From assembly GCA_949358305.1 (NCBI GenBank), contig OX442314.1, positions 32,240,001-32,304,000 of the forward strand: a stretch of DNA of 64,000 bases, given 5' to 3'. The translations under genes were made by a program, and so were the position numbers. The stretch is from Strigamia acuminata. Taxonomy: Eukaryota. Below are positions 1 to 44,565 of this stretch, piece by piece. Every line of letters begins with the position of its first letter. The stretch's first letter is position 1. The notes beneath the pieces are model-generated. The model worked only from the letters and a program-made list of their open reading frames with translations. It was not told where the DNA came from and made no database searches.

Positions 1-1363
1 AATGTCTTTTGGGCGGCGTCGACTCGCGTCGGTGATGTGAGCGATGACGAGCCTTCTGGAGTGGAGGTAACCCTCCAATGGCGCCTTCCCCCGACGACTG
101 TGTTGGGGAGGAGCGACGGCCACTGTAGGGCGACCTCGATGATCGTGACCTCGACGTGGAGCGCGGCGGCACCACATGGATGGTGGAAGCGACCTGTACC
201 CGGGGCTCAGGCTCTGGATACGGGTTTGGCACGAAATCAGCATGGAAACATCCGCCCATGGCTAGTTGATGCATCTCCGATTGGCATGTCGGCACCTAAC
301 GTTTCTTTCCGTCCGTTGTTACACGGAAAGATTCGTTGTAGAGGCGTACAACCTCGGCTTTGGTTTGATCCAAGCGTTGGAAAACGTCCTCCAAAATCTG
401 TCGACGCTCCCACGCAGGAGCGTTGAAGTAACGGCGATGGTCTCGCGTTTCTTGAGCGATCACTGTGAAGGCGAAGTCGAGCAACACGTTTCGCAGTGGT
501 CCGAAGGTGTCGCGCTTCATTGCCCACTCGAGGGCGTTGCAATGACCGAATCCATCGATTAAATAGGCGATCCGAAACTTCGTTCCCCATCGCTTGTTTA
601 AGGCTTTTGAGAACTTGTGTCGGGCCGCCCAAAACGTCAGTCTTCCTTTAGACTTTATGATCTCCGGTGGCAAAGCGTGTCGCCAGACACCGGGAGCTGT
701 TGGAACATCGGGGTGCAGTTTGAGATGCGTCTCCCGAAGCTGGATGATCTGTAAAATATTCGAAGAAATAATTAAAATCCATTTTTTCGTGTAAAATAAT
801 TATTTCCGAATTTTCAGTGAATAAAATCACGGGTGAGATTTCATTCGACAGTTTAGATTCATTAAATTTTTCAAAATATTTGAAAAATCGTAAGAAACGT
901 TGTTGCCGACGGCTATGTTTCAATGTTGGAGCGTTACCGTAGCAACGCCTCAAAAATGAGACACAGCGCCATCTGATGATAATAATGGCGGCGCCTTCTT
1001 GCGAAGGCGTTACCAACGAACTTTTCGCTTTTTCTGAGTGAAAATGCACTTTTAATTACTTTTCATGACTGAAAGGTAATTTTATTTTAAATTATTTACC
1101 CGGTCGTGTCTCTGTGCACGAGTTTCGCCGTTTGGATCGGCGAATAGGCCTCCTCGAAGTTGTGGTCGGGGCGGCGTGACTGGCAAACGGGCAGCAGCGT
1201 CGGCCAGAGCGGCTTGAGCTTCGGCGGACGCTTCGGCGGACTCTTCGGTGACATCCACGGATGTATTCGAAGTATTTGCGGAACCGAGCAGCGTCGAATT
1301 TGTTTCTAATTCGAGGCTGTTGGCGCCGGCTTCGCTTCCTTCTTTCGGTTCCTCTCCTTCCAT
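1..1363 (-). CDS. Putative spliced accessory (non-Env) gene of element A: coding exon 1363-1100, intron 1099-749, exon 748 to window edge with one in-frame TAG at 298-296
   Basis: CGG|GTAAAT donor and TTTTACAG|ATC acceptor join in phase 0 (RHDR|IIQLRETH) to the 673-296 ORF frame; the frame stays open for ~98 codons after the TAG; upstream 5'UTR intron 1449-1372 (GTAAGT..TTAG). Confidence 0.7.
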
Positions 1364-1572: not shown

Positions 1573-4500
1573 TTACGTTTGGGTAACGTCGCGGTTAGTG
1601 ACGTCATCCAATCTTATTGTTTGATTGGTTTGCGTATGGCTTGGGGAATTGCTCCTTACGTCATACGGCTGATCCCTGGATCTCGAGGTTATCGAGGGGA
1701 GAAGACACATGTTGTTTTTTCCTCTCGGTTTACGAGTCCGAAGATTATATCTCTTTGTCGGCGAGGGATTTATTGTATTTAAATCGCCGTCTTCATTGTC
1801 ATCGGAGACTGAGTCAGATGAGTCTTTTATTTCAGATGTTTTTTGTTTCTTTTCTAAAAACACCTTTTTATTTAATTTTTTAGCAATTTCAAGTTTTTTG
1901 AAACTGTCACGAAGCTCAACGTCGTTATTCACGAGGTCTGACTCCATTTGTGGTTTGGATAAATTATCGACAGGTATTTTCTTTAATTCATCGTCATCTA
2001 ACGTATTAATTATATTTTCAGTCTTTTGACCGACTTCTTCGCCTTCTAACCATACTTCCTGATCGAAACTCGGGAAATACGGAGTTAATTCAGACGAATG
2101 GACAGCTGGAAATATTTCGTTATTTTCTAGCTTTCTCAATTCTACGGATCCTCCCTGTAATACTTTGGTTATTACATATGGTCCTGTTCTTTTATCAGCG
2201 ATGCCAGCTGCAATGCCGCGGGCAGCGCTTGACAAAACATGAGAATCTCTCCAAACTAAATCGTTTAATTTAAAATTGGAGAACTTCTCACCTTCTTTTT
2301 TAAGATTTACTCGTCTGCGCAAATCTAACACGTGTGACATCATGTGTTGATATGTTTCGGCGATAACGGCTTTTAATTTTTGCACGTATAAATGTGGGTT
2401 TTTTGGATCTACGACCAAAATTCCTTCAGGTATTCTTGGATCCCAAGGTACTCTGAGTTCGCGAAAAAAGTTAAGAAATGCGGGAGAGAAGTCTCTTCCT
2501 CTCGTCACCGTAGTTCTCAAACTAAATGCAAATTCACGCAAATATTCGTCCCATTTGGAATGAACAGATGAATAAATTGCAACCAAATATTTGATGTCAC
2601 GGTTAACCCTTTCAACCGGGTTAGCTTGTGGGTGATATGTTGAAGTTGGTGTTGGAACCATCTTGAACTTTTCACAAAATTTTTTAAAGACTTGGGCACG
2701 AAATTGCGGGCCGTTGTCAGAAATAATTTTACGAGGGAATCCCATGCTCATGGAAAGGTGATAAATGCAATTTGCCACTTTTCCTGCAGTAGGGTTACAC
2801 ATTGGATATAATTCTGGCCAATGAGTTGCCACGTCAAGTATGACTAAAATGTGTGTGTTGTTTTTTCGAGTCCGAGGTTTCGGGCCGGTCAAATCAACAC
2901 TTAGGCAGTCAAATGGGCTGTAAGGACCCATTTGCGCTGCTTCAATTTGTCCTTTCGTTCGAGGCTTGCAAGCTTGACAACGCTCGCAATGTCGAATGAA
3001 TCTTGTAATGTCCGATTTCATGCCTTTCCAGGTATAAATTCGGCGTGCTCGATAAAGAGTCCTTGCAATTCCTGAGTGGCCAGAAAGTGGGTGGCCATGC
3101 ATTAGCCAAATAATTTTATACTTCAATGTCTGAGGTACAAAAACTTTGAGTGCTCTCCCATCCTCCCCCAATTCATCAGACATTGTGGGATGAAATTGCA
3201 TTAATAAGTCATCTTCAATTAAGAAGGTGGTTGCGTGTTTTCTGTATTGTTTCCTCTGGAGTCGCGTTGTGACGTCAGGCAGAAATTGATTACAATTTAA
3301 AAAATTACGCATCAATTGGCAAACTTTATCTTCTTTTTGGGCCTTGATTATGTCTTCCCTTGTAGGGGGTTCACAATCAAGACGCTCTACAATTTTGGCG
3401 ACAAATGCTTTTATTAAAACATTTGACGAAGGAATTTGAAATTTCTTTGAAATTTGCGCTCTTATGACGTCATCTGATTCCTCAGAGGGGTCATAAATTT
3501 TAGTCCAATAATTGACGAATTCGTGATCTTCCTTTTCCTCCAGCGTGGAGACAGGAAGTTCATGAAATTTTCCCATTTTCCAATTTCGTTGAGGTGATGG
3601 ACAGTAAGATAATAATTCGTCATTATCTCCATCATCTTCAGGATTTTCCGGTTTGTCAATCGGTGATCTGGATAAAGCATCCGCTAAAACATTTAGTGGA
3701 CCTTTAATATATTGTATTTCGAAAGAGTAGCGCATCAGCTCCATTTGCCAACGCGCTAATCTTCCGGCAGGTTCGTCTAACTGCATCAACCATTTTAGTG
3801 CTTGATGGTCAGTCCTAACTATGAATGTGGTAAATTCCAAATAATGTCGAAATTTACGTAATGCCCAGATTACCGCAAGGCATTCTAATTCTGTGGCGCT
3901 GTAATTTATCTCAGCAGGTTGCAAACTTCTGCTGGCATAAACACAAGGCACTTCGATATTTTGATCATCGATTTCCCTCATTTGCATAAGCGCGGCGCCC
4001 AGTCCTTTTCTGCTGGCGTCGGTATGCACAATAAATGGTTCTGTCAAATCAGGCATGGCCATTGTTTCTGCATTCGTTAAAGCATCTTTTATTTGATCAA
4101 AAGCTTCTTGATGAATTCCTGACCAAATAAATTCCACATCCTTTTTGAGTAAAGGACGTAGAGGTTCCGTCATGACTGCTAGATTCTTGAGTAATCTGTG
4201 AAAAAAGTTCACCATTCCCAAAAATCTTTGCAACTCTTTCAAATTTGAAGGAGCTGGCATTTCTTTAATGGCGGCGACTTTTTTAGGGTCGACACTGACT
4301 CCTTGAACACTTAACTTGTAGCCAAGAAAAGTTAATTCTTTTCTGCCAAATTTTGATTTTCCTGGATGAACATGAAGATTTGCATTTTCAAGTTTACTCA
4401 GAATTTCTTCCAGATGAATCATGTGTTCTTCAAAATTTTTAGATATAATAATTATATCATCGAGGTATGCCCATGCGAATTTTCGATAGGCGTCCCCCAA

Positions 4501-6021
4501 AATTTTTTCTATCAACTTTTGGAAAGTTGACGGCGCATTTACGAGGCCAAAGGGCATGACTCGAAATTGTAGTCGACCCAAAGGGCTCCAAAACGCAGTT
4601 TTAGCACGGTCGTTCGGATGAACCTCTATTTGCCAATAGCCTTTTGACAAATCTATCGTTGTGACCCATTCAAATCTTCCGAGTTCTCGCAAGATTTCCT
4701 CAATGCTCGGCATTTGAGGAGGATCGTATAATGTATGTGCATTGAGTGGTCTAAAATCAATGCAGAGTCTCGGATCACAATCCGGACGCATCACTAGAAC
4801 TATTCGCATTCCATAGTCTCCAGTGGCTTGTTCAACGTACCCATTATCCAACATATCTTGACAGATCTGACGGATAATTTCACGTTTCTGTGGATTTACG
4901 CTTTTAAACGGAACTCTAATTGGAACTTTAGTGTCCAGTTTAATTTCATGCCTAACGAGGTGTGTTCTACCTGGTCGGCGTGATAAAATCTTTTCATGTT
5001 TCTTTAATACTTTTTCAAGCATTAAATTATTTTCCATTGACAAATTAGCGTCGCTAACAAGTCTTTGTACTATATTTTCTTCATTTGCAACTTTAGCTTG
5101 ACACGCAGTGGCAGAGCCAGCTTTCATGTAATTTGCTTTAATAAAGTCGCGTCTCATGATTTCTTCGGGTGGATCAAGGAACTCTTGATAACGATCAAGA
5201 ATCGCTTGAGGAACAAAAGGTAAATCTTCTTTCAAAGACTTGACAAAATTCCAAGACATGGTCTTAGGATTTGGTTGAATATTGAGTCGATTCATGAAAT
5301 CACATCCTAATAAAATAATAGGATATTTATTTCTTAAAATTATGAATGGATGACTTAACATCCCGTGTGTCCACGCAAAAGAAAGTAGGAGAGTTCCTTC
5401 AGGGACTACATCTTCTGAAGCAGTCGTAACTCTCACATCCGGTCCAATTGGTCGAATTTCATCTTCCAGTTTCAACGAAATTACTACGGAGTAGGCCATG
5501 AAGCTTCGATTAGCTCCAGAGTCTAACATCCCTGTTATCATACCGTTTGCCGTCTGCAATCGAATCGTCGGCAAATCATTGCTGTTTGGTATGTCCGCGT
5601 ACTTGCACTTAAAACGTCGCGGTGGCTTAATTTCTATCGGCGGATCTAATGGTAATTCGTCCAATAAATCATTAGTGACTAGCGTTGCAGCCATTAATTT
5701 TTCAATACATTCATCAAGACCAGGTAAATCAATTTTATCTGACCTTTCAATGATTTCAGGTGTTGGCCTAGTTTTTTCATCAATTAAAGTAACAGCATCT
5801 TTTATTTTAGATTCCCAATCAATTTTTATTTGTTGAACTTTTTCTTTAAAAAATTCTTCAGTGATGTTCTCATTTTGCAGCACAAGCCTTAAATTGGAAA
5901 CATCAATTTTTGGAAATATTAAATTATTTTCTAATTCTAATTTAATCTGAGTATTTAAAAAATCATCTAAAATTTGAGATGGTGTTAGTTCATTTTCCGA
6001 GGCGGTAGGCGTTGCATCCAC
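1573..6021 (-). CDS. pol: Pol polyprotein of element A (protease, RT, RNase H, integrase), -1 frame relative to gag
   Basis: LDSGA protease, YLDD RT, TDAS RNase H, HGHPLSGH..CERC zinc finger, D-D(SDNG)-E integrase; uninterrupted 1482 codons. Confidence 0.97.
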   Translation of the reverse strand: MDATPTASENELTPSQILDDFLNTQIKLELENNLIFPKIDVSNLRLVLQNENITEEFFKEKVQQIKIDWESKIKDAVTLIDEKTRPTPEIIERSDKIDLPGLDECIEKLMAATLVTNDLLDELPLDPPIEIKPPRRFKCKYADIPNSNDLPTIRLQTANGMITGMLDSGANRSFMAYSVVISLKLEDEIRPIGPDVRVTTASEDVVPEGTLLLSFAWTHGMLSHPFIILRNKYPIILLGCDFMNRLNIQPNPKTMSWNFVKSLKEDLPFVPQAILDRYQEFLDPPEEIMRRDFIKANYMKAGSATACQAKVANEENIVQRLVSDANLSMENNLMLEKVLKKHEKILSRRPGRTHLVRHEIKLDTKVPIRVPFKSVNPQKREIIRQICQDMLDNGYVEQATGDYGMRIVLVMRPDCDPRLCIDFRPLNAHTLYDPPQMPSIEEILRELGRFEWVTTIDLSKGYWQIEVHPNDRAKTAFWSPLGRLQFRVMPFGLVNAPSTFQKLIEKILGDAYRKFAWAYLDDIIIISKNFEEHMIHLEEILSKLENANLHVHPGKSKFGRKELTFLGYKLSVQGVSVDPKKVAAIKEMPAPSNLKELQRFLGMVNFFHRLLKNLAVMTEPLRPLLKKDVEFIWSGIHQEAFDQIKDALTNAETMAMPDLTEPFIVHTDASRKGLGAALMQMREIDDQNIEVPCVYASRSLQPAEINYSATELECLAVIWALRKFRHYLEFTTFIVRTDHQALKWLMQLDEPAGRLARWQMELMRYSFEIQYIKGPLNVLADALSRSPIDKPENPEDDGDNDELLSYCPSPQRNWKMGKFHELPVSTLEEKEDHEFVNYWTKIYDPSEESDDVIRAQISKKFQIPSSNVLIKAFVAKIVERLDCEPPTREDIIKAQKEDKVCQLMRNFLNCNQFLPDVTTRLQRKQYRKHATTFLIEDDLLMQFHPTMSDELGEDGRALKVFVPQTLKYKIIWLMHGHPLSGHSGIARTLYRARRIYTWKGMKSDITRFIRHCERCQACKPRTKGQIEAAQMGPYSPFDCLSVDLTGPKPRTRKNNTHILVILDVATHWPELYPMCNPTAGKVANCIYHLSMSMGFPRKIISDNGPQFRAQVFKKFCEKFKMVPTPTSTYHPQANPVERVNRDIKYLVAIYSSVHSKWDEYLREFAFSLRTTVTRGRDFSPAFLNFFRELRVPWDPRIPEGILVVDPKNPHLYVQKLKAVIAETYQHMMSHVLDLRRRVNLKKEGEKFSNFKLNDLVWRDSHVLSSAARGIAAGIADKRTGPYVITKVLQGGSVELRKLENNEIFPAVHSSELTPYFPSFDQEVWLEGEEVGQKTENIINTLDDDELKKIPVDNLSKPQMESDLVNNDVELRDSFKKLEIAKKLNKKVFLEKKQKTSEIKDSSDSVSDDNEDGDLNTINPSPTKRYNLRTRKPRGKNNMCLLPSITSRSRDQPYDVRSNSPSHTQTNQTIRLDDVTNRDVTQT

Positions 6022-6054
6022 TAGACCGTCGGGATGCGCGCTTACAAGTTTTTT
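6010..6054 (-). promoter_or_regulatory. -1 ribosomal frameshift signal (A AAA AAC plus GCATCC/GGATGC stem)
   Basis: Heptamer at 6054-6048 is in the gag frame two codons before its stop; the -1 frame runs open into pol. Confidence 0.8.
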
Positions 6055-8936
6055 AGAAGTTCGCCGATTGATTTCATCGATTTTTCGAACTCCTCAATAA
6101 TCTTGTCTTTGCTCGTTTTCCTATCAGGACATTCTTTAGCCCAATGTCCTAATTTTTTGCAAATGTTACACGGGTCAGTAGCAGGTGATTTTGCGACTTT
6201 TGGCGAAGGCGAACTTGAGCGTTTGGCTTCGTCCTTTTTCGGGGTCGGCGACTTCGATCTACTGAGCGCGTCTGTCTTTGGTAAACCAAAAGTAACGTTT
6301 TTAGGCGCCATCTTTGGTCCAAATTTTCGAGCTACTGCGTTATTACGGGCTAATAAAGCAGCTGCAGCCTCGCTTTCTGGTTCCGAGTCAGATTTCTCTG
6401 GTTCAGAAGCAGCTTCCATATCTGTCACTTCGGCTAAGTGAGCTTTAGGGGTTGGATGTGGATTTTTCCCATCCGATCCCTTTCTAGATTCCTTAGCAGT
6501 CTCTGCCAAAAAATCTCCTCGTTTTGGGGGTTGCAAAAGAGGGGTGTTAGCAAAACGTGTGTCTTTTGCCAACTCCTTTCTCCGTTGCTGTCGCTTAGCG
6601 TACGCAACTTTTTCATCAGCTGGTAGATAAGCTTTATAATTTTCGTCAATCCTTATCTGATTAGCTCGCATAAATTTGGCTAATTCAGCGAAACCACCCG
6701 GATAAGGTGCTCGTACAGAAAGTAGAACATTTTTTGAGTAATCTGTCAATCCACGACGGAATTGACGATCAATGGCTGCGTCTCCCATCGTATAAGGGAG
6801 AGTGACCAATAAATCCTCAGTCCTTCTTAAATAAGAGCGAAGACTTTCGCCTTTATTTTGAGAAAGATTATCCCACATTTGTAATAAGTCTTCACTTGAC
6901 TCTCCATACTCAGTCATGAATTCTTCTACAAAGTGGTTCCAGTTTTGAAATTGTTTAGAATAAAACCATTTCTCAGCTCGATCTATAAGAGCTTTTGGTA
7001 CTACTCTTTTCAAAGCAGTGTGACATGCAATGCCATTCAACCTTGAAATTCGTAAAACTTCATCTAAAAGAGTGGATCCAGCTTCCCATTCTCCATCGAA
7101 TAAAGCGGGTTTGATGTGATCCCATCTAATAGTTCTTTCATCAACTAGATCGTGCGTCCAGTTGTTGGCAGTGTATTGAGCAATTTTCTGTCGTAGTGCA
7201 ATGTCAGCATTATCGGCAGTAGCGTCAGATCGATCGGAAGATCGACGATCAGCTAATAATCGATCAATTTCTTCAGCGGTGTAATAATGAGTATTACGCC
7301 GAGAAGAATGGCCTCGATGTCGACGTCGATGAGATCGATGTCGATTATCGCGTTCTTGTTGCGCATTCACATCAGAATCCGACCTTGAATCAGATTGTGA
7401 ATTTGAAGGCGTGTTAAAATGTGGTGTTTCAGGTGGGTCGGGTGGGTCGCCGTCATCGTCTGGCGGTCGACGTCCACCTCCAGGTGGTCCATCTCCGTGT
7501 CCATCTGGATTTCCTCCATTTGGTGGATTTCTTCTATACTGACCCCCACCTGGCGGGCTTTCATGTCCGTCGGGTGGTTCGCGTGCTGGATTCGTGTCTC
7601 GTCGACTTCTTTTCGACGAGTCTTGCTGTTGAGCCAGTGGTATCGTTCGAGTAACATGAATACCAGTTTCATGCCGTCTATTTTGATCATCTACCATTCC
7701 CAACAGTCGGTCACTGTTATGAAAAATAGGATTTCGATTTCCAGGGAGCGGATTGCGATCAGCTCTCCGTTCCTCGGAATCTGAAGGACGTTTTCTTTTT
7801 GAGCGATGGCGGCGACGCGAACGTTGGTCGTCATCACTCGATAATCCAGATTGGCTACTTAACTCTGAAACAACAGAAATTGTTATTGTTTCGGGAGTCA
7901 AAATAGGAACAGTTGGCGCAGCCATTTCTGGTTGTACCAATTGGTCAGTATAATTTCTTGCTTGCAAACGATCTTTCATTTCTGCAAGCTCCTCTTGAGC
8001 GCGCAACAAATCAGCTCGGAGAATTTCATTCTCATTTATTTCATTTTGCGATTTTTCTGGTTGTAATCGCTTAGCAGGGTCGCTAGACTTGACTTGTCCG
8101 CTCGTACTGGGTTGATCCAGCGAGTGGAAAATCTCGTCTTCACGCTTAGCTATTTTGCTTTCGCGAGTACGCTGTGTTTTAGCACGTGTGTCTAATTCAG
8201 CAGCATATCTCACTAGTTGATTATGATTGCGTTGGTAGTGATCTGCCAAATCAATCAACTCTTTATTTTTCTGCTCTAACTTACTTTTGGTAAGTTCGAG
8301 CTGTCTTCGCGCCTCTTGGTGTGAGCGAATTGAAAGTTCATTTCTAGTATTCATTTTAGAAAGATCTTCCACTTCACCTTTTAATCTGTATTCTCTAGCT
8401 TTTTGGGCTAGAAATTCCTCATTTTGTCGATTGAGTTCCATATGTTGGAGCTCAACCTCCGCTTTTTGTTGTTGAAGCTCAGCTTGTTTTCGCTCCATTT
8501 CAAATTGTAAATTTGAAACGGCGCGGTCAGTGTGAAGTCGTATCATGGCGCGATGAATCTCTTCCACCGTCATGTCGTCCGTTATTTGGGCGCCATCTTG
8601 GCGTGCTTGATTTCTCAAAGCATCCAACATGGTCATGCGAGGAGGTGATTCGTGAGACGATTCACTTTCCATTTCACGTAACGTATTTTCCACTTCCTCC
8701 AGTGGAAGTGGCGGGAGTTCTTGTTCGTTAGAACTCGCACTTGATGCGCTCAGGGCTCGAGCAACCTCATTTTCAGCATCCTTAAGTTGTTTCGGATCTG
8801 GAACTGGTGTTATTTCTTCAGAAATAACTTTTTCCATAAGCATTTCAGGCTCGAGAGCCGGCAAAACCGTCGCTGCTCGTTTCTGAGTGCTTGGTCGACC
8901 TCGCTGTCGTTTTACAATTTGCATTGGCGTCGCCAT
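6042..8936 (-). CDS. gag: Gag of element A (964 aa: N-terminal coiled coil, capsid-like region, CCHC knuckle)
   Basis: CNICKKLGHWAKEC knuckle; LSQNKGESLRSYLRR major-homology-like motif; ATG directly downstream of the PBS. Confidence 0.93.
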   Translation of the reverse strand: MATPMQIVKRQRGRPSTQKRAATVLPALEPEMLMEKVISEEITPVPDPKQLKDAENEVARALSASSASSNEQELPPLPLEEVENTLREMESESSHESPPRMTMLDALRNQARQDGAQITDDMTVEEIHRAMIRLHTDRAVSNLQFEMERKQAELQQQKAEVELQHMELNRQNEEFLAQKAREYRLKGEVEDLSKMNTRNELSIRSHQEARRQLELTKSKLEQKNKELIDLADHYQRNHNQLVRYAAELDTRAKTQRTRESKIAKREDEIFHSLDQPSTSGQVKSSDPAKRLQPEKSQNEINENEILRADLLRAQEELAEMKDRLQARNYTDQLVQPEMAAPTVPILTPETITISVVSELSSQSGLSSDDDQRSRRRHRSKRKRPSDSEERRADRNPLPGNRNPIFHNSDRLLGMVDDQNRRHETGIHVTRTIPLAQQQDSSKRSRRDTNPAREPPDGHESPPGGGQYRRNPPNGGNPDGHGDGPPGGGRRPPDDDGDPPDPPETPHFNTPSNSQSDSRSDSDVNAQQERDNRHRSHRRRHRGHSSRRNTHYYTAEEIDRLLADRRSSDRSDATADNADIALRQKIAQYTANNWTHDLVDERTIRWDHIKPALFDGEWEAGSTLLDEVLRISRLNGIACHTALKRVVPKALIDRAEKWFYSKQFQNWNHFVEEFMTEYGESSEDLLQMWDNLSQNKGESLRSYLRRTEDLLVTLPYTMGDAAIDRQFRRGLTDYSKNVLLSVRAPYPGGFAELAKFMRANQIRIDENYKAYLPADEKVAYAKRQQRRKELAKDTRFANTPLLQPPKRGDFLAETAKESRKGSDGKNPHPTPKAHLAEVTDMEAASEPEKSDSEPESEAAAALLARNNAVARKFGPKMAPKNVTFGLPKTDALSRSKSPTPKKDEAKRSSSPSPKVAKSPATDPCNICKKLGHWAKECPDRKTSKDKIIEEFEKSMKSIGELLKNL

Positions 8937-9008
8937 TTTGTCAAATTGAAAAAGAACAATGGAAATAAAGGATCTTTTTGCAAAAATCGGATTTTAACAA
9001 TCAAAACT

Positions 9009-9026
9009 ATCCCGGACGGGCCCCCA
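9009..9026 (-). promoter_or_regulatory. Primer-binding site, tRNA-Pro type
   Basis: TGGGGGCCCGTCCGGGAT, 2 nt after the LTR end; 17/18 to the MLV-type tRNA-Pro PBS TGGGGGCTCGTCCGGGAT. Confidence 0.9.
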
Positions 9027-9028
9027 AG

Positions 9029-10092
9029 TGCGGCGATCCGGGTTTTTACTTATTAAATTATATAAATTCAATAAGCAATCGTCGTAGAGATGCCGTACAG
9101 GACTTCTACTCTGTGGCCAAATGTTTGTCTAGGGGAATGATTTTACACAGAGTAAAGGAAAAATTAGATAGTTTTAATCGTTCAAAATACAAAGGAGGTA
9201 TTATTTAAAATGTTTGGGGTCGATCTGGCTTCTTCTTCAAATGTACACTCACAGTTGACCGTTGACTCCAAGATGGCGTCGATGGCGTCGTGTGAGCGCG
9301 GGATTTTAGCGGAGTAAACTCGACGCTAAAATACGTTGCTAAAATATACTAAAATCCTCGTGGAGCACGCTCGACACGAGAATACGTCTTGCACACAGCG
9401 GTTCGATTATTACGGAGCAAGCTCGACGTAACAATCGGTCTTTACACAAATCGCTTTGTGGAGTTAAACTCGACACAAAGCCTCCAAACTAACAGAGTAA
9501 ACTCGATGTTAGTTTCACACAGAAATGGCTTAAATTACACGTAGTAATTCAAGCTAGAAAGTTGCTATTCCGTACAGTGGGTACAGACCAGCGATGAAAC
9601 TCAATTCGTCCAAGAATCACAGATCACACTTTGCAGTTTTGGCAGAAGTTTGACACGGTTGTGAACAGTTTGGAGGTGGAATCAAGAGTGCGGGAAGAGT
9701 GGGCCAAAACCGTTTGGCTCACTCCTAAATCTGCTCAGAAAAGCTGCGCAGATGACGAGTTGCACAAAGATCACACACGGCCGCCCTCGGGTCGTGTGCA
9801 ACAACTGAGCCGGGCACGCGCGAGGGGAAGGGATGCTCCGCCCAGGCACACGCCTAGCAGCATCATCAAAGCAATGCACGCTGCAGCGCGATTGGTTGAC
9901 GCTGTTGCTGGGCCAAAACTTGCTGCAAAACACAATATTATTTGGGTAATATTGTGTCTTGTTTTATATTTTATTAATGTATGTTTTATTTCAATTTACA
10001 TTGAAACAAAACATATAAGCTTGTTGAATATGTTTATAAGACAATTTGGAAATATGGTGCGCACTCAAATAGGAATATTTGAGGTCACCACA
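9029..10092 (-). repeat. 5' LTR of element A (1064 bp)
   Basis: TGTGGTGAC...CGCCGCA termini; colinear with the solo LTR at 43492-44565. Confidence 0.95.
9303..9515 (-). ncRNA. Array of five TAR-like bulged RNA hairpins within the LTR (cis element)
   Basis: Five different stems (6-10 bp), each capped by UC bulge-GAG-loop-CUC; pairing preserved in the diverged solo LTR. Confidence 0.8.
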
Positions 10093-10925: not shown

Positions 10926-12411
10926 TGTTGCGTTCCTGGATGTTCCCAAAATATATGATAATAATAATTGCACAGAATATTAATCTAATTCAATGCAAAA
11001 GGTCCCGGTATTCAACCTGTGGAAAGCAGTTGAATGCCGTAAAAGGTCTTCTATCGGGTTTGGCAGTTAAGTTGGTGTCTAGGGGTTTTTTGGCTGTTGG
11101 TTTTGTGTCTAGGGGTTCTTTTGGTAGCAAATGCAATAATAACAAGTAATTTAAAAAAGGATAAACAGTTTTATTAATGTTAAAATTAAGGAGTAATATG
11201 AATACAAGGGATAAATAAATAATTAAGTGAATATTGCTAAAGTTAAACAAAGAAATAAGAGAAAGGCGCGAGAACAATGGAATTGTTCGCGCGCGCGGAA
11301 ACAATAAGTTTGGAAAATGGCGGCAACGGATCGCCGTGAAAATTGGTGCAAATGCACACAAACGGGCGCGGAATCGTGAGATTTCGCGATGTGATTCGGC
11401 TGTGGAGCCAGAATCGTGGCCAGCTAGATAGCCAGGCCAAAGTGGAGAATACGAGGTGTGAACCCTCGAGTTGAAACGGGAAATTCTCCGTTGAAAACTC
11501 ACGAGTCCAACTGGCGTGGTTCGCACTGTCGAATCCGGTTTTCAGGTCCGTTTCTTCTCGGTAAATTACCGTCGTCAGTAGGTCGAGCGTCGAGGTTTCG
11601 TCGGCTTTCGCGCGTCGTCCCTCGTCAACTCGGCGGCTGGCTGGCGTCGGTCTTCAACGTATATCACTCGAATTACCGTCGTCGGTGGCTAGCGTCGAGG
11701 TTTCGTCGGCTTGGCGCGCGTCGTCCCTCGTCGGCTTGGCGTGATCCGGGCGTCGGTCTACGATGGTGCGTATACGTTTATCTTCGGGCGGCGGCGGAAA
11801 CAACGGTTGCTCGGTCCGTTGCACGTCGACTTCGTCGTCCGGGAAGGAGTCACTTGATGCGTATTGGCATCAAGCAAATCAGTTGAAACTTTGCAATATC
11901 TCACGGATCACGGACAAAACAGTGTTTTTGGTTTGAACAAAGCTGTGTCGGTGTGAACGGTGTGAGGAGGAGGCAAAGAGTGAGTAATAAACGAATTTAT
12001 TACCCAAACTTTGGCCGGAAAATCGGCCGAGTGCGCATGCGTGGCATGCACCTGGCACACTTCGTGCCCAGCAACGGTGCAAATTAGGAGCTGGCCATAG
12101 CAACCCCCCAATTTGGCAGTTAGGTTGCCATGGCAGTCCTAACGGCTTCTGTTTAACAGCCGAAAGCACTTGGCAATTGCAAATAAAATGAGTATTTTAT
12201 TTGCACAAGCAAGCAAAAAATATGTAATTATTTTAACAAATAATTCATTAAAAACACTAAAATAAATTGATTCCTTAAATTACCAATTTCTACTATTTCT
12301 AAATAATTAAAGGGACTGTAAAACAATTTATTTAACACATTAAATAGATTAAATTATTAATTTCTTATACTCCAAATATTCCAAATAAAAGGAACATTTG
12401 AGATCACAACA
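10926..12411 (-). repeat. Element B internal (shared) LTR, 1486 bp
   Basis: TGTTGTGATC...GCAACA; preceded by PPT GGGGGGAAG (12420-12412) and followed by a PBS. Confidence 0.93.
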
Positions 12412-12747
12412 CTTCCCCCCAATTAAAATCAAACATTTTTAATTTAAAAGGATGGAATATAGTGGGTCCTGATCACAAATTGTTCAAATAATTAAATTAT
12501 TAACAAATTTGATAATAATAGGATTTACAAATTTGCAAATAGAGGTTAAAACACGGAATAAAATAATTTAGTAGTGAAGAATTAGTTATTTTCTAGGCTA
12601 AAACTGAATTTCAACTAAAATTATTGGTAGTCACTACAGTAGTGCATTAAATAATTCGAATAACAATTTGATTTTCAAGAAAAAGTTATGCAAACGATTA
12701 AATACGTAAAAAACAATGATATTAAAAATTTTAACATAAAAAGTTAT

Positions 12748-15700
12748 TTAGTGGCATTGAATCCAATAAATGATGCCGATTGGTAACTCTGGGGCTAAAG
12801 GAGTCGGCAATCGAGGTAAGCTCATGTCTGTTGTCTTGTCTCGAAGGTTTTCCCTCTCGAGGACAAGTTCAAACGGACGGCCGGTATACGGCCCAAAAAT
12901 TAAATCTGTGTTGTCGTGCAACCACTCACTTCTAATTGAGCAAAAGTTGACGTTATCTTCAAACGTTATTTCGTTATTTTCTCGGGGCATTTTCGGCTTT
13001 TTTCTAACTTTTGTTAGCCGCTGATAATGAATCCACGGCTGCTTTGCCTCGATGTGGCGTTCTGAGCGCTCTTGATCTTCGTACCCGAGATTAACTGAAT
13101 TTTCTTGCAGCATCCTCATGTGTGGTTGCAGCCTTGAGTAGGTTTTTCGTAATTGGCGGTAAATTGTCAATTCTTCTTGATCTTCCAACTGTTTCGAGGG
13201 AATTGAACAAGGTTTCGCCGGTGACGGCGGTTTTGTCCGTGATGGACGTCTCTTTTTTGTAGACTGTCGAGTCACGGGAGGTGCGAAGGCACATGTTTCA
13301 CTGATTGGTCTTGTCGCCAATGCGCCTTGTGCATCATGCACTAGTCGGGTGACCAAGCGATTTTTCCGCTGAAGAAATGTTTTTGGCCTGGCGCCTGAGC
13401 TGGCATAATCGACAGTCCGTAGGATGGGCCCGCTGGAATTGGGTCTTGACGTTGAAATCGACGAGTTGACGGGCTGTATTGTCGTAAATTGTCCTGAGGT
13501 CTTTATAGCCTTTTTGGTCGCTTTTACAGCAACACCAGCAGCAGGATTCAATGTTGATGAAGATCTCGTTTTCTTCTTGACCAGGGAGACCGGCATTTCT
13601 TCTGGTTGAACTGATTCGAGCTCCGTTTGGTAGGTATCTCCTCGTTCATCTCGTTCATTCAGCAGTTTGACCAACTCGGCCGAATGTTTGGAAATCGAAG
13701 CTGGTGGAGACTTCTTTTTTAGCGTTGGCGAAACTGGTGTCTCTACTGATTGAATCGCTGGGAGTACATGCTTGTGAGCGATCTTCCGTGGCTTCCGCTT
13801 CTTGTGAAGTTGGATGGCCGATTCGGCCAAGTGTTTGTTACTAACAAGTACAAGTTCTTGCTGTATGGTCGACGAATCTAGGAGAATGGACCTCCAGTAG
13901 TCTAAAAAATTATCTTGGTTACCAGTATTCATCGGGGGTGTCCAGAGACATATTGCGTCTGCGAGGGCAATTCGATTGCTTGTGGCGGTGCTCCGAGTTA
14001 AAATGCTGCAAAGTCCTGCGACCAATAATTGTTGTAAAGCGGAGAGTTGAATGTCCAGGGCATTGGTTGGCTCCATGTCGCGCAGATGATTGATTATACG
14101 CTGCCAATTTTGAATGGTTTTGCTAATTTGAGTCCTTTGATACTCATTCAGGTCTTCCATCAAAATATCTTGTGTGTCACGAGGCAATACTTCAACACTG
14201 GACTTCGTCATGTCATAATTTTGGTCAAACGATCGGCTTTGAGTCAAAGAAACTGTTTCGAATTTCTCAGCCGGAAATTGGGATTTTGTGGTGCTTGTTT
14301 TTGGATACACAGAGGTCGTGATGGAGTTTCTAACAATAGATACTTCTTGTGCATTCGGATGTGTTAACACTGGGGTCAAATGGGTAATTGGTTTCTCCAA
14401 ATTTTCAATTTGCATTAACACTGGAGTCGAATTGATAATTGACTTTTCCCAATTTTCAACTTGCGTTGCCCAATCCATAGCCGTTTGGTCGGCTGTCTGT
14501 GACAATTCCAAGGGATAATCTTTTTTAATTTTTTCCGCTGTTGGCACAGAATTAATATTTTTCAACAAGGCGATTGATGTTGGAGTGGCGGAGATCGGCG
14601 CATCACTGGTTGAGACATAAATTTCCGTCGGCTGCGATGTGTCGGTCTCTGCGTCCCATCGTTTCTCTGCTTTGCTGAGAGGCTTTTCCCCTGCAATTGT
14701 TCCATGTGGCTCACACACTTCCACGTCTTCATCCCGTTCATCGGAATTTTCATCAGGCTGTGGAACTTGGTGATATGACGTTTCGTATCGTTGTTGTTTA
14801 GTGAGCTCACCGAATTCACAAATTTTCCTTTCAGATTGACACTTGGGATGGTCTTTTTTATCAAGAAAGGTAAATTTTGGTTGCGCACCCTTATTTATTT
14901 TAGATGTATCAAATGATCTTTTTGTAAAAAGCTTTTTAGGCTTACATTTATCTTCAGCCACGTGTTTAGCTAACACTACACTGGTATTACCAATTGTTGA
15001 GCCGGTTTCTTTTTCGGCTTTCACTTTAGCTTTGAGATCGACTTCATTCATCGAGTCAACAATGGTAAGTCGAGTATGAGAATGAGAAGTTTTTGTAGAA
15101 CAATGAGGATTCTGCACTTGATTAATGTTTTTTGCCGGTTTCTCGGCAAATGTAGCTGCACTTGATCTCTCGAAAGTTTGTTCTCGGTATTCAAATGTTT
15201 TTTCAATCTCTTCAGTTGCATTGTAAATTGGGGTCCAATCTGAGAGCGAAGATGCACATGTTTGAGGACGACTTTGTTGTCCCCCCACCTTAGGTGAACG
15301 CGTTGACTGTTCACTGCTGAAAGCGGAATTTTCACGTCTTGATTGATATGGCGGAGAACAATCACTACTTTTTTCGCATTCCCTCTTTGGTGGATTAATA
15401 TATGTTGGTGAACCGTAATGTGATTGAGAGTCATTGAAATTATTTTCGATATCTGAATTTTTGCAGAAGTTGCTGGATAATTTCGCACTTTGTTCACAAT
15501 TTTTTGAGTCTATTATATTCAATAATGCATGGCTATTATTAAATATTTCATCACTTGAAGTGTTCCATTTTTTACAGTCAGAAGCTTCCATCGTTGAACT
15601 TCTTTTCGTTTGAAATTTTCGTTTGTCATTACTGGACGCACAGAACGAACGATTATTGTCAGTAGTTGCAAGATTAACCATTTTAGGTTTGAACGCCGTG

Positions 15701-16662
15701 ACATCCGGCGGATTCGGTTGTTGAGTTGTAAACTCGGCTGATCGAATCTTCTTCAAGAGTTCGTCTATCTCTTCCTGAGATTTTTGTATTTCCGCAAATT
15801 TTGCCGTCCATTCGGTTTTGTGAAATTGTCGGCATGGTGATGATGGTGTTTCACGAATTTCATGCGACTTTTTCCATTTTCGATCCGCATCTAACCGTTG
15901 TTGTGGTTGTAAGGTGAAGGATTCGTCCTCACGGTGGGATAAATTCTTTGTACGCACTTGTCGCAGATTGGCTATTTCTTGAAGTTCCAATTCGCGGGCT
16001 TTAGTTCTATTACAAATTTCTTCGTCTAGAGCTTGTTTAGTTTCGTCAAGCTCTCTGCTTGTTCTTTCCAATTCTTCAATTTCGGCACTTTCATTTGCAT
16101 TTTCCTCGGCCGCACAATGTTTATTTAAAACGAGTTTGGCTTGTGATAAATTCAATCGGTCACGAGTTAGTTCCATTTCGAATGCTAATGTCTCTATTCG
16201 ATAATCCATTTCATCGACAAATTGTTCGCTTTCAAAATTGATCGTGGCTAGGCGAATTTTCTCGGCCGCGTCTGGATCTACGAGGAGAACTTCGGCAACG
16301 AGCGCTTCAAACTCTGGTGACCGCTGAGGAAATTCATATCTTTGTCTTGGAGTCGAGGTGCGTGGTTGAGTACGATCATTTACTTTGTCAATACTCCTTT
16401 TTGTTTCAGCATCCATTTCACGATCCGTTGAAACATTTTTGAATTTTTGAAATGAACGTTTTTTCGCATCAAGTGAAATTTCAGCCGATATCTCGGCTTC
16501 GGCGATTTCCAATCGAGTTTCGGCTGAGCGTTTAGCCGTTACTTCCTTTGGAAAACTAGTGCGCCGAGTTTGGGCACCTTGTGGGCAGTTAGACCCGACT
16601 ATTGGACGACTATACGTCCTTCCCTCAATTGGCGAAGGGACTTCATCATGTAACTTAGGCAT
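12748..16662 (-). CDS. 1304-aa orphan ORF of element B (coiled-coil N terminus, S/T/K-rich low complexity, helical C-terminal part)
   Basis: Single long ORF between PBS and PPT; no CCHC, protease, YxDD or DDE motif seen. Confidence 0.8.
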   Translation of the reverse strand: MPKLHDEVPSPIEGRTYSRPIVGSNCPQGAQTRRTSFPKEVTAKRSAETRLEIAEAEISAEISLDAKKRSFQKFKNVSTDREMDAETKRSIDKVNDRTQPRTSTPRQRYEFPQRSPEFEALVAEVLLVDPDAAEKIRLATINFESEQFVDEMDYRIETLAFEMELTRDRLNLSQAKLVLNKHCAAEENANESAEIEELERTSRELDETKQALDEEICNRTKARELELQEIANLRQVRTKNLSHREDESFTLQPQQRLDADRKWKKSHEIRETPSSPCRQFHKTEWTAKFAEIQKSQEEIDELLKKIRSAEFTTQQPNPPDVTAFKPKMVNLATTDNNRSFCASSNDKRKFQTKRSSTMEASDCKKWNTSSDEIFNNSHALLNIIDSKNCEQSAKLSSNFCKNSDIENNFNDSQSHYGSPTYINPPKRECEKSSDCSPPYQSRRENSAFSSEQSTRSPKVGGQQSRPQTCASSLSDWTPIYNATEEIEKTFEYREQTFERSSAATFAEKPAKNINQVQNPHCSTKTSHSHTRLTIVDSMNEVDLKAKVKAEKETGSTIGNTSVVLAKHVAEDKCKPKKLFTKRSFDTSKINKGAQPKFTFLDKKDHPKCQSERKICEFGELTKQQRYETSYHQVPQPDENSDERDEDVEVCEPHGTIAGEKPLSKAEKRWDAETDTSQPTEIYVSTSDAPISATPTSIALLKNINSVPTAEKIKKDYPLELSQTADQTAMDWATQVENWEKSIINSTPVLMQIENLEKPITHLTPVLTHPNAQEVSIVRNSITTSVYPKTSTTKSQFPAEKFETVSLTQSRSFDQNYDMTKSSVEVLPRDTQDILMEDLNEYQRTQISKTIQNWQRIINHLRDMEPTNALDIQLSALQQLLVAGLCSILTRSTATSNRIALADAICLWTPPMNTGNQDNFLDYWRSILLDSSTIQQELVLVSNKHLAESAIQLHKKRKPRKIAHKHVLPAIQSVETPVSPTLKKKSPPASISKHSAELVKLLNERDERGDTYQTELESVQPEEMPVSLVKKKTRSSSTLNPAAGVAVKATKKAIKTSGQFTTIQPVNSSISTSRPNSSGPILRTVDYASSGARPKTFLQRKNRLVTRLVHDAQGALATRPISETCAFAPPVTRQSTKKRRPSRTKPPSPAKPCSIPSKQLEDQEELTIYRQLRKTYSRLQPHMRMLQENSVNLGYEDQERSERHIEAKQPWIHYQRLTKVRKKPKMPRENNEITFEDNVNFCSIRSEWLHDNTDLIFGPYTGRPFELVLERENLRDKTTDMSLPRLPTPLAPELPIGIIYWIQCH

Positions 16663-16823
16663 GATGGCAAGAATGTTACAAAAAGAGAAGAAAGATGATA
16701 GGAAAGTTAGAAAAATAGGTAAAAAATACTAAAATGGGGAAAAACAAGATTTTTTAATTTTTTAATCTTACTTTAAATTCTAAAAATTCTAAAAATTGGG
16801 ATAATCCCGGCCGGGCCCCCAAG

Positions 16824-25832: not shown

Positions 25833-26842
25833 TGTCACGGCCCGGCATTAACGCGTAATGTAACTTTAACCCATTGTTGTGTTTGTTCGCGTTTTCCGTG
25901 AGTTCCTAGCTATGATTTGTTATCATTGTTTTGTTAAAACTCCCAATAAATCCTAAACCTAATATAATTTGAGTTTTGTCCTACCTTTATTTCCTATTCA
26001 TGTTTATCCTTTGATTTGGTCTGGTGTGGCTCAATTCTGCCACATCAGACTAGTCTAAGTCGTGTATTTCCTACTGTTACCCCTCCTAATTTCGTTTAGT
26101 TCATCCTATCTAATTTAAATGTTTAGTCACTCGCGACTGACTCATCGCGATGATTATTCACGAGCGCGCCTGATTGGCTTACGCGTGCTTGACTCATGGT
26201 TCTCCCCTCGTTTTCTGTGATGGACTTGGCCCAAGTTCACTTCTGAGCTGTTTCAGCCAAGTCTGATCAGAAGGCGTAAGACCATGAGCTATCGTAAGTG
26301 CCTTAACTGGCCGTTGTGCATTTGGCGACTTTTCCTGTGTTAATTCGCAGTAACTCCATGCCACGTAATTGTGCATGTTTGAGTATATCCATTATCATAT
26401 CGCGTGTCTAAATTCCGCGTGTCATCTTTGATTCCTTTCCTTTCGATGTTCTTTTGTGTTTACACGAAGTTTTATGCCGCTGACGTGCCTCTGGACTAGA
26501 AATTAGATTCAAGTAGCTAATGAGTTGTTTATTTCGTCTTTTGCGCGCGATTAGTGCGCGCTTGCTCGGTCTGGCCGCTCCGCCATTAGGGGTCCCTGCC
26601 AGATTAGCTTAAGCCACGTTAGCGTTGTTAAGTCCGCACGTGAGCATTACTTCTTCCACTTTTAAGGCTCCAACAAACTCGGTAATAATTCGTAACATGA
26701 TCGAATAGGGGGTTAAGCTTGCCGCCACCCTTCAGGCTGCTTAACGTTGCCGGGCCCTTATTCGGGACCAGGCTCTCTTGTATCGTAACTGGCGCGTCTT
26801 TCAAACGCGGTTTCAAAGACCAGAAACAACCGGTTCATGACA
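25833..26842 (+). repeat. Element C 5' LTR
   Basis: TGTCACG...CATGACA; repeated at 37261-38270. Confidence 0.97.
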
Positions 26843-26844
26843 CG

Positions 26845-26862
26845 TGGTGCCGAAACCCGGGA
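26845..26862 (+). promoter_or_regulatory. PBS, tRNA-Phe
   Basis: TGGTGCCGAAACCCGGGA, complementary to the 3' 18 nt of animal tRNA-Phe. Confidence 0.92.
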
Positions 26863-43491: not shown

Positions 43492-44565
43492 TGTGGTGAC
43501 CTCAAATATTCCTATTTGAGTGCGCACCATATTTCCAGATTGTCTTATAAACATATTCAACAAGCTTATATGTTTTGTTTCAATGTAAATTGAAATAAAA
43601 TATATATTAATTAAATATAAAACAAGACACAATATTACCCAAATAATATTGCGTTTTGCAGCAAGTTTTGGCCCAGCAACAGCGTCAACCAATCACGTTG
43701 CAGCATGCATTGCTTTGATGATGCTGCTAGGCGTGTGCCTGGGCGGAGCATCCCTTCCCCTCGCGCGTGCCCGGCTCAATTGTTGCACACGACCCGAAGG
43801 CGGCCGTGTGTGATCTTTGTGCAACTCGTCATCTGCGCAGCTTTTCTGAGCAGATTTAGGAGTGAGCCAAACGGTTTTGGCCCACTCTTCCCGCATTCTT
43901 GATCCTGCTTCCAAACCTTTCACAACCGTGTCAAACTTATGCCCAAACTCGCTAAGTGTGATCTGTGATATTGGAAGAATCGAGATTCATTGCTGGTCCG
44001 TGCCAACTGTACGGAATAGCGCCTTTCTAGCTTGAATTACTACGCGTAATTTAAGCAATTTCTGTGTGTAAATTGACATTGAGCTTGCTCTGTCAATTTG
44101 AAGGCTTTGTGTTGAGTTTAACTCCACAAGGCGAACTGTGTTAAGACGGATTGTTACGTCGAGCTTGCTCCGTAATAATCAAACCGCTGTGTGCCAGACG
44201 TATTCTCGTGTTGAGCTTGCTCCGCGAGGATTTTAGAATATTTAGAGGCGTATTTTAGCGTTGAGTTTACTCCGCTAAAATCCCGCGCTCATACGACGCC
44301 GTCGACGCCATCTTGGAGCCAACGGTCAACTGTGAGTGTAGGTTTGAAGAAGAAGCCAGATCGACCCCAAACATTATCTTTTTGAATAATACCTCCTTTG
44401 TATTTTGAACAATTAAAGCTATCTAATTTTTCCTTTTACTCTCTGTGTAAAAATCATTCCCCTAGACAACCATTTGGTCACAGAGTAGAAGTCCTGTACG
44501 GCATCTCACCGACGATTGCTTGTTAAATTTGTATAATTTAATAAGTAAAAACCCGGATCGCCGCA
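43492..44565 (+). mobile_element. Solo LTR of family A (1074 bp)
   Basis: TG..CA ends, TCCT 4-bp TSD, diverged colinear match to 9029-10092. Confidence 0.95.

What the first reader, a model, noticed from the sequence alone, without database searches (positions are those of the whole stretch)
9303..9515. Five tandem TAR-like RNA hairpins in a Ty3/Gypsy LTR
Seen: on the element's sense strand the LTR reads AAACTAACA-TC-GAG-TTTA-CTC-TGTTAGTTT; GCTTTGTG-TC-GAG-TTTAA-CTC-CACAAAGC; GATTGTTACG-TC-GAG-CTTG-CTC-CGTAATAATC; CTCGTG-TC-GAG-CGTG-CTC-CACGAG; ATTTTAGCG-TC-GAG-TTTA-CTC-CGCTAAAAT. The five stems differ in sequence but all pair, and the apex is invariant. Established: a pyrimidine bulge starting with U followed by G-C, A-U, G-C pairs is the arginine-binding core of lentiviral TAR. 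Inference: a multivalent binding platform for an Arg-rich protein acting in transactivation, export or packaging. I know of no such array described for Metaviridae. It lies upstream of a conserved ATTAAA, but whether it is in R or U3 cannot be determined here.
Basis: partly seen in the sequence, partly recalled or inferred. Interest (0 to 1): 0.92.

Follow-up and report, generated by a model that had tools for sequence, protein, structure and literature searches.

The report
TAR-like hairpin array in Gypsy leader
A Gypsy-type jumping gene carries five copies of a small bulged hairpin whose fixed core matches the protein-gripping core of HIV's TAR RNA; the copies are kept paired as their stems change and likely sit in the untranslated front end of its RNA, where they probably act as a row of docking sites for one of the element's own proteins.

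Summary
A 1,064-bp LTR of a Ty3/Gypsy element has five hairpins of the form stem, purine, U-Y bulge, GAG, 4-5-nt loop, CUC. A 92%-identical solo LTR in the same window has all five. Shuffles give 0.014 such hairpins on average. Stems covary. Across copies, 0 of 35 core positions vary, against 21 of 62 spacer positions. G-U wobbles favour the sense strand. New here: the 752 nt from LTR position 405 to the gag AUG hold no sense AUG (10.8 expected), so the array is likely in the 5' leader (R/U5), not U3. It precedes a GTGAGT donor and ATTAAA. The constraint pattern (first U fixed, second bulge base and loop free) mirrors TAR's arginine pocket. But the G-rich cyclin-T1 loop is absent, the array may lie far from the cap, and Rfam finds no TAR. 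Best reading: a convergent, multivalent docking platform for an element-encoded basic protein that handles the RNA after transcription. The predicted spliced accessory protein (Rev/Rex/CERV-like) is first candidate, Gag second. Tat-like transactivation is possible but less likely. No binding, TSS or expression data exist. Not found in print in my searches.

The parts
9486..9515 (-). Hairpin 1 (9-bp stem, A-UC-GAG-UUUA-CUC)
   Evidence: two compensatory pairs and a loop switch against the solo LTR
9453..9481 (-). Hairpin 2 (8-bp stem, G-UC-GAG-UUUAA-CUC)
   Evidence: U-A versus U-G wobble between copies
9405..9436 (-). Hairpin 3 (10-11-bp stem, G-UC-GAG-CUUG-CUC)
   Evidence: G-U versus A-U variant in contigs
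9354..9383 (-). Hairpin 4 (9-bp stem, G-UC-GAG-CGUG-CUC)
   Evidence: U-A versus U-G between copies
9303..9332 (-). Hairpin 5 (9-bp stem, G-UC-GAG-UUUA-CUC)
   Evidence: both partners of one pair vary in contigs, unphased
9029..10092 (-). 5' LTR of the Ty3/Gypsy element, 1,064 bp, TG...CA
8937..9860 (-). Sense-AUG-free stretch, LTR position 233 to the gag AUG: inferred long 5' leader that contains the array
9247..9252 (-). GTGAGT splice-donor consensus 50 nt downstream of the array (predicted), same in both copies
9129..9178 (-). ATTAAA (9178-9173; candidate poly(A) signal), CTAAT branch-like site (9167-9163), pyrimidine tract and CCCCTAG acceptor-like site (9135-9129); predicted
9528..9592 (-). 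Two further hairpins just upstream of the array, shared by both copies, with G-U changes on the sense strand
9009..9026 (-). Primer-binding site, tRNA-Pro type (assignment recalled, not tested; no tRNA gene in the window)
6042..8936 (-). gag: Retrotrans_gag and one CCHC knuckle; two Arg-rich patches upstream of the capsid domain
1573..6093 (-). pol (RT, RNase H, integrase in Gypsy order), overlapping the gag end in another frame
1100..1363 (-). Predicted accessory exon 1 (ATG, acidic and Ser-rich, ends at a phase-0 GT)
1..748 (-). Predicted accessory exon 2 (phase-0 AG): 150-aa basic helical region of no known family, an in-frame stop at 298-296 in this copy, then an RS/Arg-rich frame open to the window edge
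43492..44565 (+). Solo LTR of the same family (92% identity, TCCT target duplication) with all five hairpins at 44069-44282

Best explanation
[quoted passage not shown] Shown here: five copies per LTR in two copies; covarying stems; a fixed U/GAG/CUC core; a free second bulge base and loop; sense-strand G-U polarity; an AUG-free leader; a downstream donor consensus; an extra ORF region after pol. Inferred: the bulged U forms a U-A-U triple on the second pair, and arginines read the two G's from the major groove, as in TAR and 7SK; the binder is the spliced accessory protein (Rev/Rex/CERV-like), with Gag's Arg-rich patches as second candidate; the five sites at 33-52-nt spacing seed cooperative assembly. 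Odds by layer: selected RNA structure about 0.93; protein docking array about 0.8; this binder and this job about 0.35-0.4.
For: Array beyond chance. Covariation score 0.688 against 0.274 in column shuffles, 0 of 500; slid controls 0.08-0.17. Variable sites: core 0 of 35, stems 10 of 90, loops 5 of 21, second bulge base 4 of 5, spacers 21 of 62; core against spacer Fisher p=2e-5. Nine of the 10 stem variants fit pairing (one needs its unphased partner); one breaks a terminal pair. Sense folding of the two LTRs shares 225 pairs with 17 broken, antisense 169 with 37 broken. No sense AUG in 752 nt against 10.8 expected, 0 of 2,000 shuffles; AUG is the only one of 64 trinucleotides absent; the antisense strand has 11. 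TAR determinants for a Tat-mimic peptide: U23C abolishes binding, G28 changes cut it by orders of magnitude, U25C is mild, and loop changes range from mild (A35, G32/G36) to large (G33A/G34A/G21A, 70 nM) (PMC6379670, passages). Arginine-sandwich definition (PMC6189040, passages). Precedent in Gypsy elements for an export protein from a spliced mRNA: Cer1 CERV (PMC10309623, passages). Phase-matched exon borders and an RS/Arg-rich frame in the accessory region.
Against: No binding, probing, TSS or expression data. The accessory splice is predicted from sequence only. Its Arg-rich part lies behind an in-frame stop in this copy, and no 12-residue window of either exon has 5 arginines, whereas Gag has two such patches. 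Exon 2 has no homologue and no usable model (pLDDT 43). The array lies upstream of the donor, so it would also be on spliced RNAs and cannot by itself single out genomic RNA. The TAR match is only U plus three pairs: about 1 in 256 per motif, 13% somewhere among 36 arrays. The covariation test uses a structure read from these same sequences and only about five independent hairpins. Contig tables drop strongly diverged copies, and 6 rows were not shown.
Confidence: 0.4

Rival explanations
1. The array is a packaging signal read by Gag: its Arg-rich patches bind the five pockets and nucleate particle assembly on the leader.
For: Leader position near the PBS. Gag has two Arg-rich patches and only one zinc knuckle. 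HIV-2 packaging determinants lie upstream of the major donor (PMC9142903, passages). Earlier notes of this scan report covarying hairpin arrays in protein-less LTR elements (unchecked).
Against: The fixed letters are paired G's and a bulged U, not exposed loop G's as zinc knuckles usually read (own knowledge). The motif occurs nowhere else in the element or in the neighbouring PBS-sharing element 2. The array would be on spliced RNAs too.
Confidence: 0.27
2. A true Tat/TAR-like switch: the accessory protein binds nascent leader RNA and, through its acidic N-terminal part or P-TEFb, boosts transcription from the LTR.
For: The core matches TAR's U23, G26, A27-U38, G28-C37. HIV-2 TAR has two tandem hairpins with 2-nt bulges (PMC1474061, passages). 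The array is in R/U5 and on all transcripts. Accessory exon 1 is acidic.
Against: No G-rich hexaloop, which cyclin T1 reads and which supplies most of the affinity. The AUG-free stretch begins about 345 nt upstream of hairpin 1, so the array may be far from the cap. No Cys-rich Tat-like region. Rfam lists no TAR family at E<=10.
Confidence: 0.12
3. The array acts through host factors or RNA processing: it mimics 7SK arginine sandwiches and binds HEXIM-like or SR proteins, or it controls U1 access to the donor and use of the ATTAAA at the 5' versus the 3' LTR.
For: 7SK carries four arginine-sandwich bulges. A donor upstream of the poly(A) signal is the foamy-virus layout, where U1 suppresses 5'-LTR polyadenylation and RNA structure releases it at the 3' LTR (PMC3694450, abstract); the same order is seen here.
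Against: The third pair is G-C as in TAR, not U-A as in 7SK's pseudo-ASM3. The hairpins are self-contained and do not pair with the donor region in either copy. A GTRAGT is expected 0.48 times per LTR by chance.
Confidence: 0.13
4. The hairpins are a neutral relic of local duplication, or act as DNA (cDNA hairpins or spaced GAG/CTC protein sites).
For: Both strands fold equally well as RNA and as DNA (z about -3.9 each). The bulge C/U change is a CpG transition, and 16 of 65 CpG sites differ between the copies.
Against: Stems differ in sequence yet stay paired. Wobbles favour the sense strand. At the five bulge CpGs the change is C to T four times and G to A never, against 5 and 7 elsewhere (p=0.09). 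The core is frozen while spacers drift.
Confidence: 0.06

Closest known systems
Lentiviral TAR (HIV-1 TAR; HIV-2 TAR hairpins I and II)
   Same: Purine before a pyrimidine bulge that starts with U, then G-C, A-U, G-C; U fixed, later bulge base free; tandem hairpins with 2-nt bulges as in HIV-2; located in the LTR-derived leader.
   Different: Five copies; short YNUR-type loops in place of the G-rich hexaloop; probably not cap-proximal; no Tat homologue; host element is Metaviridae; no Rfam match.
7SK stem-loop 1 arginine sandwich motifs (HEXIM/Tat sites)
   Same: Several pyrimidine bulges able to form base triples and arginine pockets.
   Different: In 7SK four motifs lie within one helical turn of one stem; here each sits on its own hairpin, and the third pair is G-C.
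Rev/RRE, Rex/RxRE and Cer1 CERV export systems
   Same: Predicted spliced accessory gene after pol, basic and RS-rich; structured multivalent RNA element; CERV shows that a Gypsy element can use such a protein.
   Different: No sequence similarity detected for the accessory exon. RRE and RxRE are branched structures, not arrays of equal hairpins. No RNA target of CERV appeared in the passages read.
Multi-hairpin retroviral packaging signals (HIV SL1-4; HIV-2 signal upstream of the donor)
   Same: Several leader stem-loops that could each bind Gag.
   Different: The fixed feature here is a bulge and stem, not a loop, and all five units share one core.
Foamy-virus LTR layout (major donor upstream of the poly(A) signal)
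   Same: GTGAGT about 70 nt upstream of ATTAAA inside the LTR.
   Different: Only predicted here; the abstract read describes no hairpin array.

Membership tests
Ty3/Gypsy (Metaviridae) LTR retrotransposon | LTR with TG...CA ends, PBS, target-site duplication | tested here: met
   TG...CA, PBS 2 nt after the LTR, 4-bp TCCT duplication at the solo copy; the 3' LTR of the full element is outside the window
Ty3/Gypsy (Metaviridae) LTR retrotransposon | gag, then pol with RT, RNase H, integrase in that order | tested here: met
   nearest single-domain RT-RH relatives about 43-45% identical, the named ones mostly animal Gypsy proteins; lineage not determined
Lentiviral TAR | Purine, bulge starting with U, then G-C, A-U, G-C | tested here: met
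   10 of 10 hairpins against residues named in PMC6189040
Lentiviral TAR | G-rich apical hexaloop read by cyclin T1 | tested here: not met
   loops are UUUA, UUUAA, CUUG, CGUG; role of the loop from PMC6379670
Lentiviral TAR | At the capped 5' end of the transcript | tested here: inconclusive
   AUG depletion puts the array in the leader and the TSS somewhere between LTR about 233 and 570; hairpin 1 starts at 578; no 5'-end data
Lentiviral TAR | Cognate Tat (Cys-rich domain plus Arg-rich motif) | tested here: not met
   accessory frames hold no Cys-rich region and have no homologue
Lentiviral TAR | Match to a curated TAR model | tested here: not met
   Rfam 15 at E<=10: 7 weak matches, none over the array, none TAR
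Arginine sandwich motif (TAR/7SK type) | Bulged pyrimidine able to form a triple with the second pair; paired base just before the bulge | tested here: met
   secondary-structure geometry met in 10 of 10
Arginine sandwich motif (TAR/7SK type) | Triple formed and arginine bound | not testable with these tools
   needs NMR, ITC or EMSA
Rev/Rex/CERV-type export system | Accessory protein from a spliced mRNA | tested here: inconclusive
   phase-matched GT/AG borders predicted; no transcript data
Rev/Rex/CERV-type export system | Arg-rich RNA-binding motif and export signal in that protein | tested here: inconclusive
   a basic helix in exon 2 and an RS/Arg-rich frame behind a stop; no window with 5 Arg in 12 residues; export signal not tested
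Rev/Rex/CERV-type export system | Element needed for export of unspliced RNA | not testable with these tools
   needs a reporter assay

The most novel reading that the evidence does not exclude
This Gypsy lineage has independently evolved a complex-retrovirus control circuit: a spliced accessory protein that binds a five-fold array of TAR-type arginine pockets in the LTR leader and switches on the element's own expression, by transactivation or by export. It would be the first RNA response element with its cognate regulator defined in Metaviridae, and a natural case of convergence on the HIV TAR fold.
Probability: 0.35. Interest if true: 0.9.

Novelty: new variant of a known kind. Interest (0 to 1): 0.72.

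Why it matters
RNA response elements with an arginine pocket are a hallmark of lentiviruses and of 7SK. A selected five-copy version in a Gypsy element would show that this fold arose again outside Retroviridae, and would give the first defined RNA target for the many unexplained extra ORFs of LTR retrotransposons. The natural variation already separates fixed from free positions, so the binding and reporter tests are sharp and cheap. The AUG-depletion test also gives a general, sequence-only way to place the U3/R border in LTRs that lack transcript data.

Tried and rejected
No whole genome is held, so only two genomic LTR copies were compared. Of these 143 loci, 5 had two or more motifs with stems of 5 bp or more; all looked like tandem repeats or satellites with near-identical stems, and none matched the LTR by BLAST. 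The patterns required a first bulge of TC, so all-UU arrays would be missed. Sequencing runs: 3 of 6 listed hold the LTR; no RNA holder listed. No contig or read evidence was obtained for the accessory region, so its splicing and the state of its stop in other copies stay open. Accessory exon 2: 0 hits among 16 candidates, 0 in 1.84 billion representatives, no Pfam family, Atlas best 0.88 to unnamed or ERCC4-minority clusters, below the reliable range, AlphaFold pLDDT 43, so no fold search was run. Gag capsid region: 0 of 1,271 candidates. A covariance model of the ten hairpins finds only those ten in the window; the next hit has 18.6 bits against 38.7 or more. LTRs of the two other elements have no such array. 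Rejected: a simple tandem repeat; strand choice by folding energy; U3 location. [quoted passage not shown] An Arg-rich alternative frame over accessory exon 1 has no ATG and was set aside.

Full report
Setting. The finding lies in the 5' LTR (window 9029-10092, minus strand, 1,064 bp) of a Ty3/Gypsy element. A PBS follows after 2 nt (tRNA-Pro type; this assignment is recalled), then gag (Retrotrans_gag, one CCHC knuckle), an overlapping pol with RT, RNase H and integrase, and 1.6 kb of extra sequence that runs off the window before any 3' LTR. The RT-RNase H region is about 43-45% identical to its nearest single-domain relatives, the named ones mostly animal Gypsy proteins, so the host is probably an animal; neither host nor lineage was determined. 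A second copy of the LTR, 92% identical, is a solo LTR at 43492-44565 with a TCCT target duplication. No whole genome is held.

The observation. All five hairpins are as quoted. They are in the MFE and centroid folds (z -3.9). A scan that ignores sequence and asks only for a 2-nt 5' bulge, three pairs, a 4-5-nt loop and a lower stem of 8 bp or more finds five in each LTR, all with GAG; 2,000 shuffles give a mean of 0.014 and a maximum of 2. Across the 64 kb, 10 of the 18 such hairpins are these. TRF reports no array over the region, and the 5' stem arms share only 1-6 of 9 bases.

Selection on structure. Over the nine distinct hairpins, 92.9% of cells pair, 9 of 14 pairs show double changes, and the covariation score is 0.688 against 0.274 in column shuffles (0 of 500) and 0.08-0.17 when slid. 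The first and fourth loop bases also covary (U-A in 5, C-G in 4), giving a fourth upper pair. Caveat: the structure was read from these sequences, and the A and B copies are related, so about five units are independent; two of the five measures were not beyond the shuffles (40 and 336 of 500). An independent angle is variation between orthologous positions. Hairpin 1 has two compensatory pairs between the copies. Pooling the A/B differences with variant tables from contigs of three public runs of two studies, variable sites are 0 of 35 in the core, 10 of 90 in stems, 5 of 21 in loops, 4 of 5 at the second bulge base and 21 of 62 in spacers (core against spacer p=2e-5; stem against spacer p=9e-4). 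Nine of the ten stem variants are compensatory or wobble changes (one depends on an unphased partner); one rare one breaks a terminal pair. Six rows were not shown, and contigs with many differences fall out of such tables. The bulge C/U change is a CpG transition in a region where 16 of 65 CpGs differ, but the mirror change that would destroy the G was never seen (4 and 0, against 5 and 7 elsewhere; p=0.09).

Strand and position. Folding energy does not pick a strand (z -3.9 for both, as RNA and as DNA). Wobbles do: sense folds of the two LTRs share 225 pairs, with 8 one-sided changes kept and 17 broken, against 169, 4 and 37 for antisense. The sense strand has no AUG from LTR position 233 to the gag AUG. 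For the 752 nt from position 405 (a border set by the divergence changepoint, not by AUGs) 10.8 are expected, none of 2,000 shuffles has zero, AUG is the only absent trinucleotide of 64, and the antisense strand has 11. The solo copy has one AUG in its 670 nt, at 448. This is the mark of a scanned 5' UTR, so the array (LTR 578-790) is likely in R or U5. AUGs are also somewhat scarce in 1-404 (4 against 9.9), and 405-577 alone is only p=0.02, so the TSS can be placed only between about 233 and 570. The neighbouring element 2 shows the same trait (no AUG over 1.1 kb). Downstream of the array both copies have GTGAGT (9252), ATTAAA (9178), CTAAT, a pyrimidine tract and CCCCTAG (9129). A donor upstream of the poly(A) signal is the foamy-virus layout (PMC3694450, abstract). 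If ATTAAA is the signal, the array is in a long R and present at both ends of the RNA. A GTRAGT is expected 0.48 times per LTR by chance, so this remains a prediction.

Comparison with TAR. In TAR, U23 forms a triple with A27-U38 over the base A22, and arginines contact G26 and G28 (PMC6189040, passages). All ten hairpins have purine, U, then G-C, A-U, G-C. For a Tat-mimic peptide, U23C or deletion abolishes binding, G28 changes cut it by orders of magnitude, U25C is mild, and loop changes range from mild to large (PMC6379670, passages). The natural pattern here is similar: U and GAG fixed, second bulge base and loop free. HIV-2 TAR has two tandem hairpins with 2-nt bulges (PMC1474061, passages). 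Against membership: the G-rich loop that cyclin T1 reads, said there to supply most of the affinity, is absent; the array may be 170-350 nt from the cap; there is no Cys-rich Tat-like frame; Rfam lists no TAR match. The likeness covers only U plus three pairs, about 1 in 256 per motif and 13% among 36 arrays, the number of LTR hairpin-array notes that this scan holds. So it works like an arginine-sandwich site by geometry, but it is not a TAR.

Candidate binders. After pol, an ATG at 1363 opens an acidic 88-codon exon that ends at a phase-0 GT; a phase-0 AG at 749 opens a 150-codon basic, helical region; after an in-frame stop at 298-296 the same frame goes on into an RS/Arg-rich stretch up to the window edge. 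Whether that stop is read through, spliced round or peculiar to this copy is open. The 150-aa region has no homologue and no confident model. The Gypsy element Cer1 needs such a spliced extra protein, CERV, to export its genomic RNA (PMC10309623, abstract and passages). Gag has two Arg-rich patches, near residues 386-402 and 546-566 of the frame, and HIV-2 keeps packaging determinants upstream of its donor (PMC9142903, passages).

Mechanism. I commit to a post-transcriptional docking array. Each unit likely forms an arginine pocket; five units at 33-52-nt spacing would let a basic, self-associating element protein assemble on the leader; the accessory protein acting in export is my first candidate (about 0.4 with the layers multiplied), Gag acting in packaging the second (0.27). 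Tat-like transactivation (0.12), host-factor or processing control (0.13) and a neutral or DNA role (0.06) follow. Shown: array, selection, strand, leader position by AUG depletion. Inferred: triple, binder, job.

Range and novelty. Pattern scans of viral and metagenome contigs found no true array in 143 loci; these collections hold little animal DNA, so this says little about related animals. A model of the hairpins finds only the ten known copies in the window. Seven literature searches aimed at such an element (listings and abstract starts only) showed no TAR-like array in an LTR retrotransposon; one search returned one paper, a HERV review, not read. The library lacks most subscription journals, and no supplements were read. 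PMC3601003 (passages) notes stem-loop conservation in long R regions and has no whole-word 'TAR'. Earlier notes of this scan describe other covarying hairpin arrays in LTR elements of other genomes, with different motifs (unchecked); they suggest a recurring class and raised my odds for Gag. Verdict: real, selected, probably undescribed; a new variant of a known kind of RNA site; function untested. Interest 0.72.

Noticed in passing
window 10926-18309 (-): A second LTR element: near-identical LTRs of about 1.49 kb (about 10926-12411 and 16824-18309), the same PBS type and first 25 bp similar to the finding's LTR, one 1,326-aa ORF with no Pfam family and no pol. A second PBS and ORF start follow its 3' LTR (tandem arrangement). 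Its leader is AUG-free over 1.1 kb and has GTGAGT. Possibly a non-autonomous partner; no hairpin array.
   Followed up: partly
window 25833-38270 (+): A third, young Gypsy element: 1,010-bp LTRs 99.9% identical, gag, pol in two frames, and an extra 628-aa ORF (34794-36680) with no Pfam family, Arg-rich N-terminus and Cys/His clusters.
   Followed up: partly
window 9029-10092 versus 43492-44565: Divergence between the two LTR copies jumps at alignment column 404 (10 of 404 against 76 of 672; likelihood ratio 31, permutation maximum 15.7). This may be a strand-transfer recombination point near the U3/R border, or stronger constraint on U3.
   Followed up: partly
window 44098-44202 and 9448-9523: Single contigs skip about two hairpins (103 nt in all three runs, short side 22 nt; 74 nt in one run), hinting at family members with three hairpins. 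Weak evidence.
   Followed up: no
window 9925-10092 (-): Three long AT-rich hairpins at the 5' end of the LTR (window z -5 to -8 on both strands) surround AATAAA and TATAAAA.
   Followed up: no
window 9270-9277 (-): GCCATCTT, a YY1/Pho-like site (motif recalled), lies between the array and the donor in both copies.
   Followed up: no
window 8900-8936 (-): Gag begins with KRQRGRP, an AT-hook-like motif (recalled), and has an unusually long low-complexity region before the capsid domain.
   Followed up: no
window 9029-10092 versus 43492-44565: 16 of 65 CpG sites differ by transition between the copies, suggesting a host that methylates these elements.
   Followed up: partly
window 39584-41219, 49884-50135, 55183-61952: Several satellite arrays with 10-, 21-, 30-, 31-, 40- and 167-bp units.
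   Followed up: no
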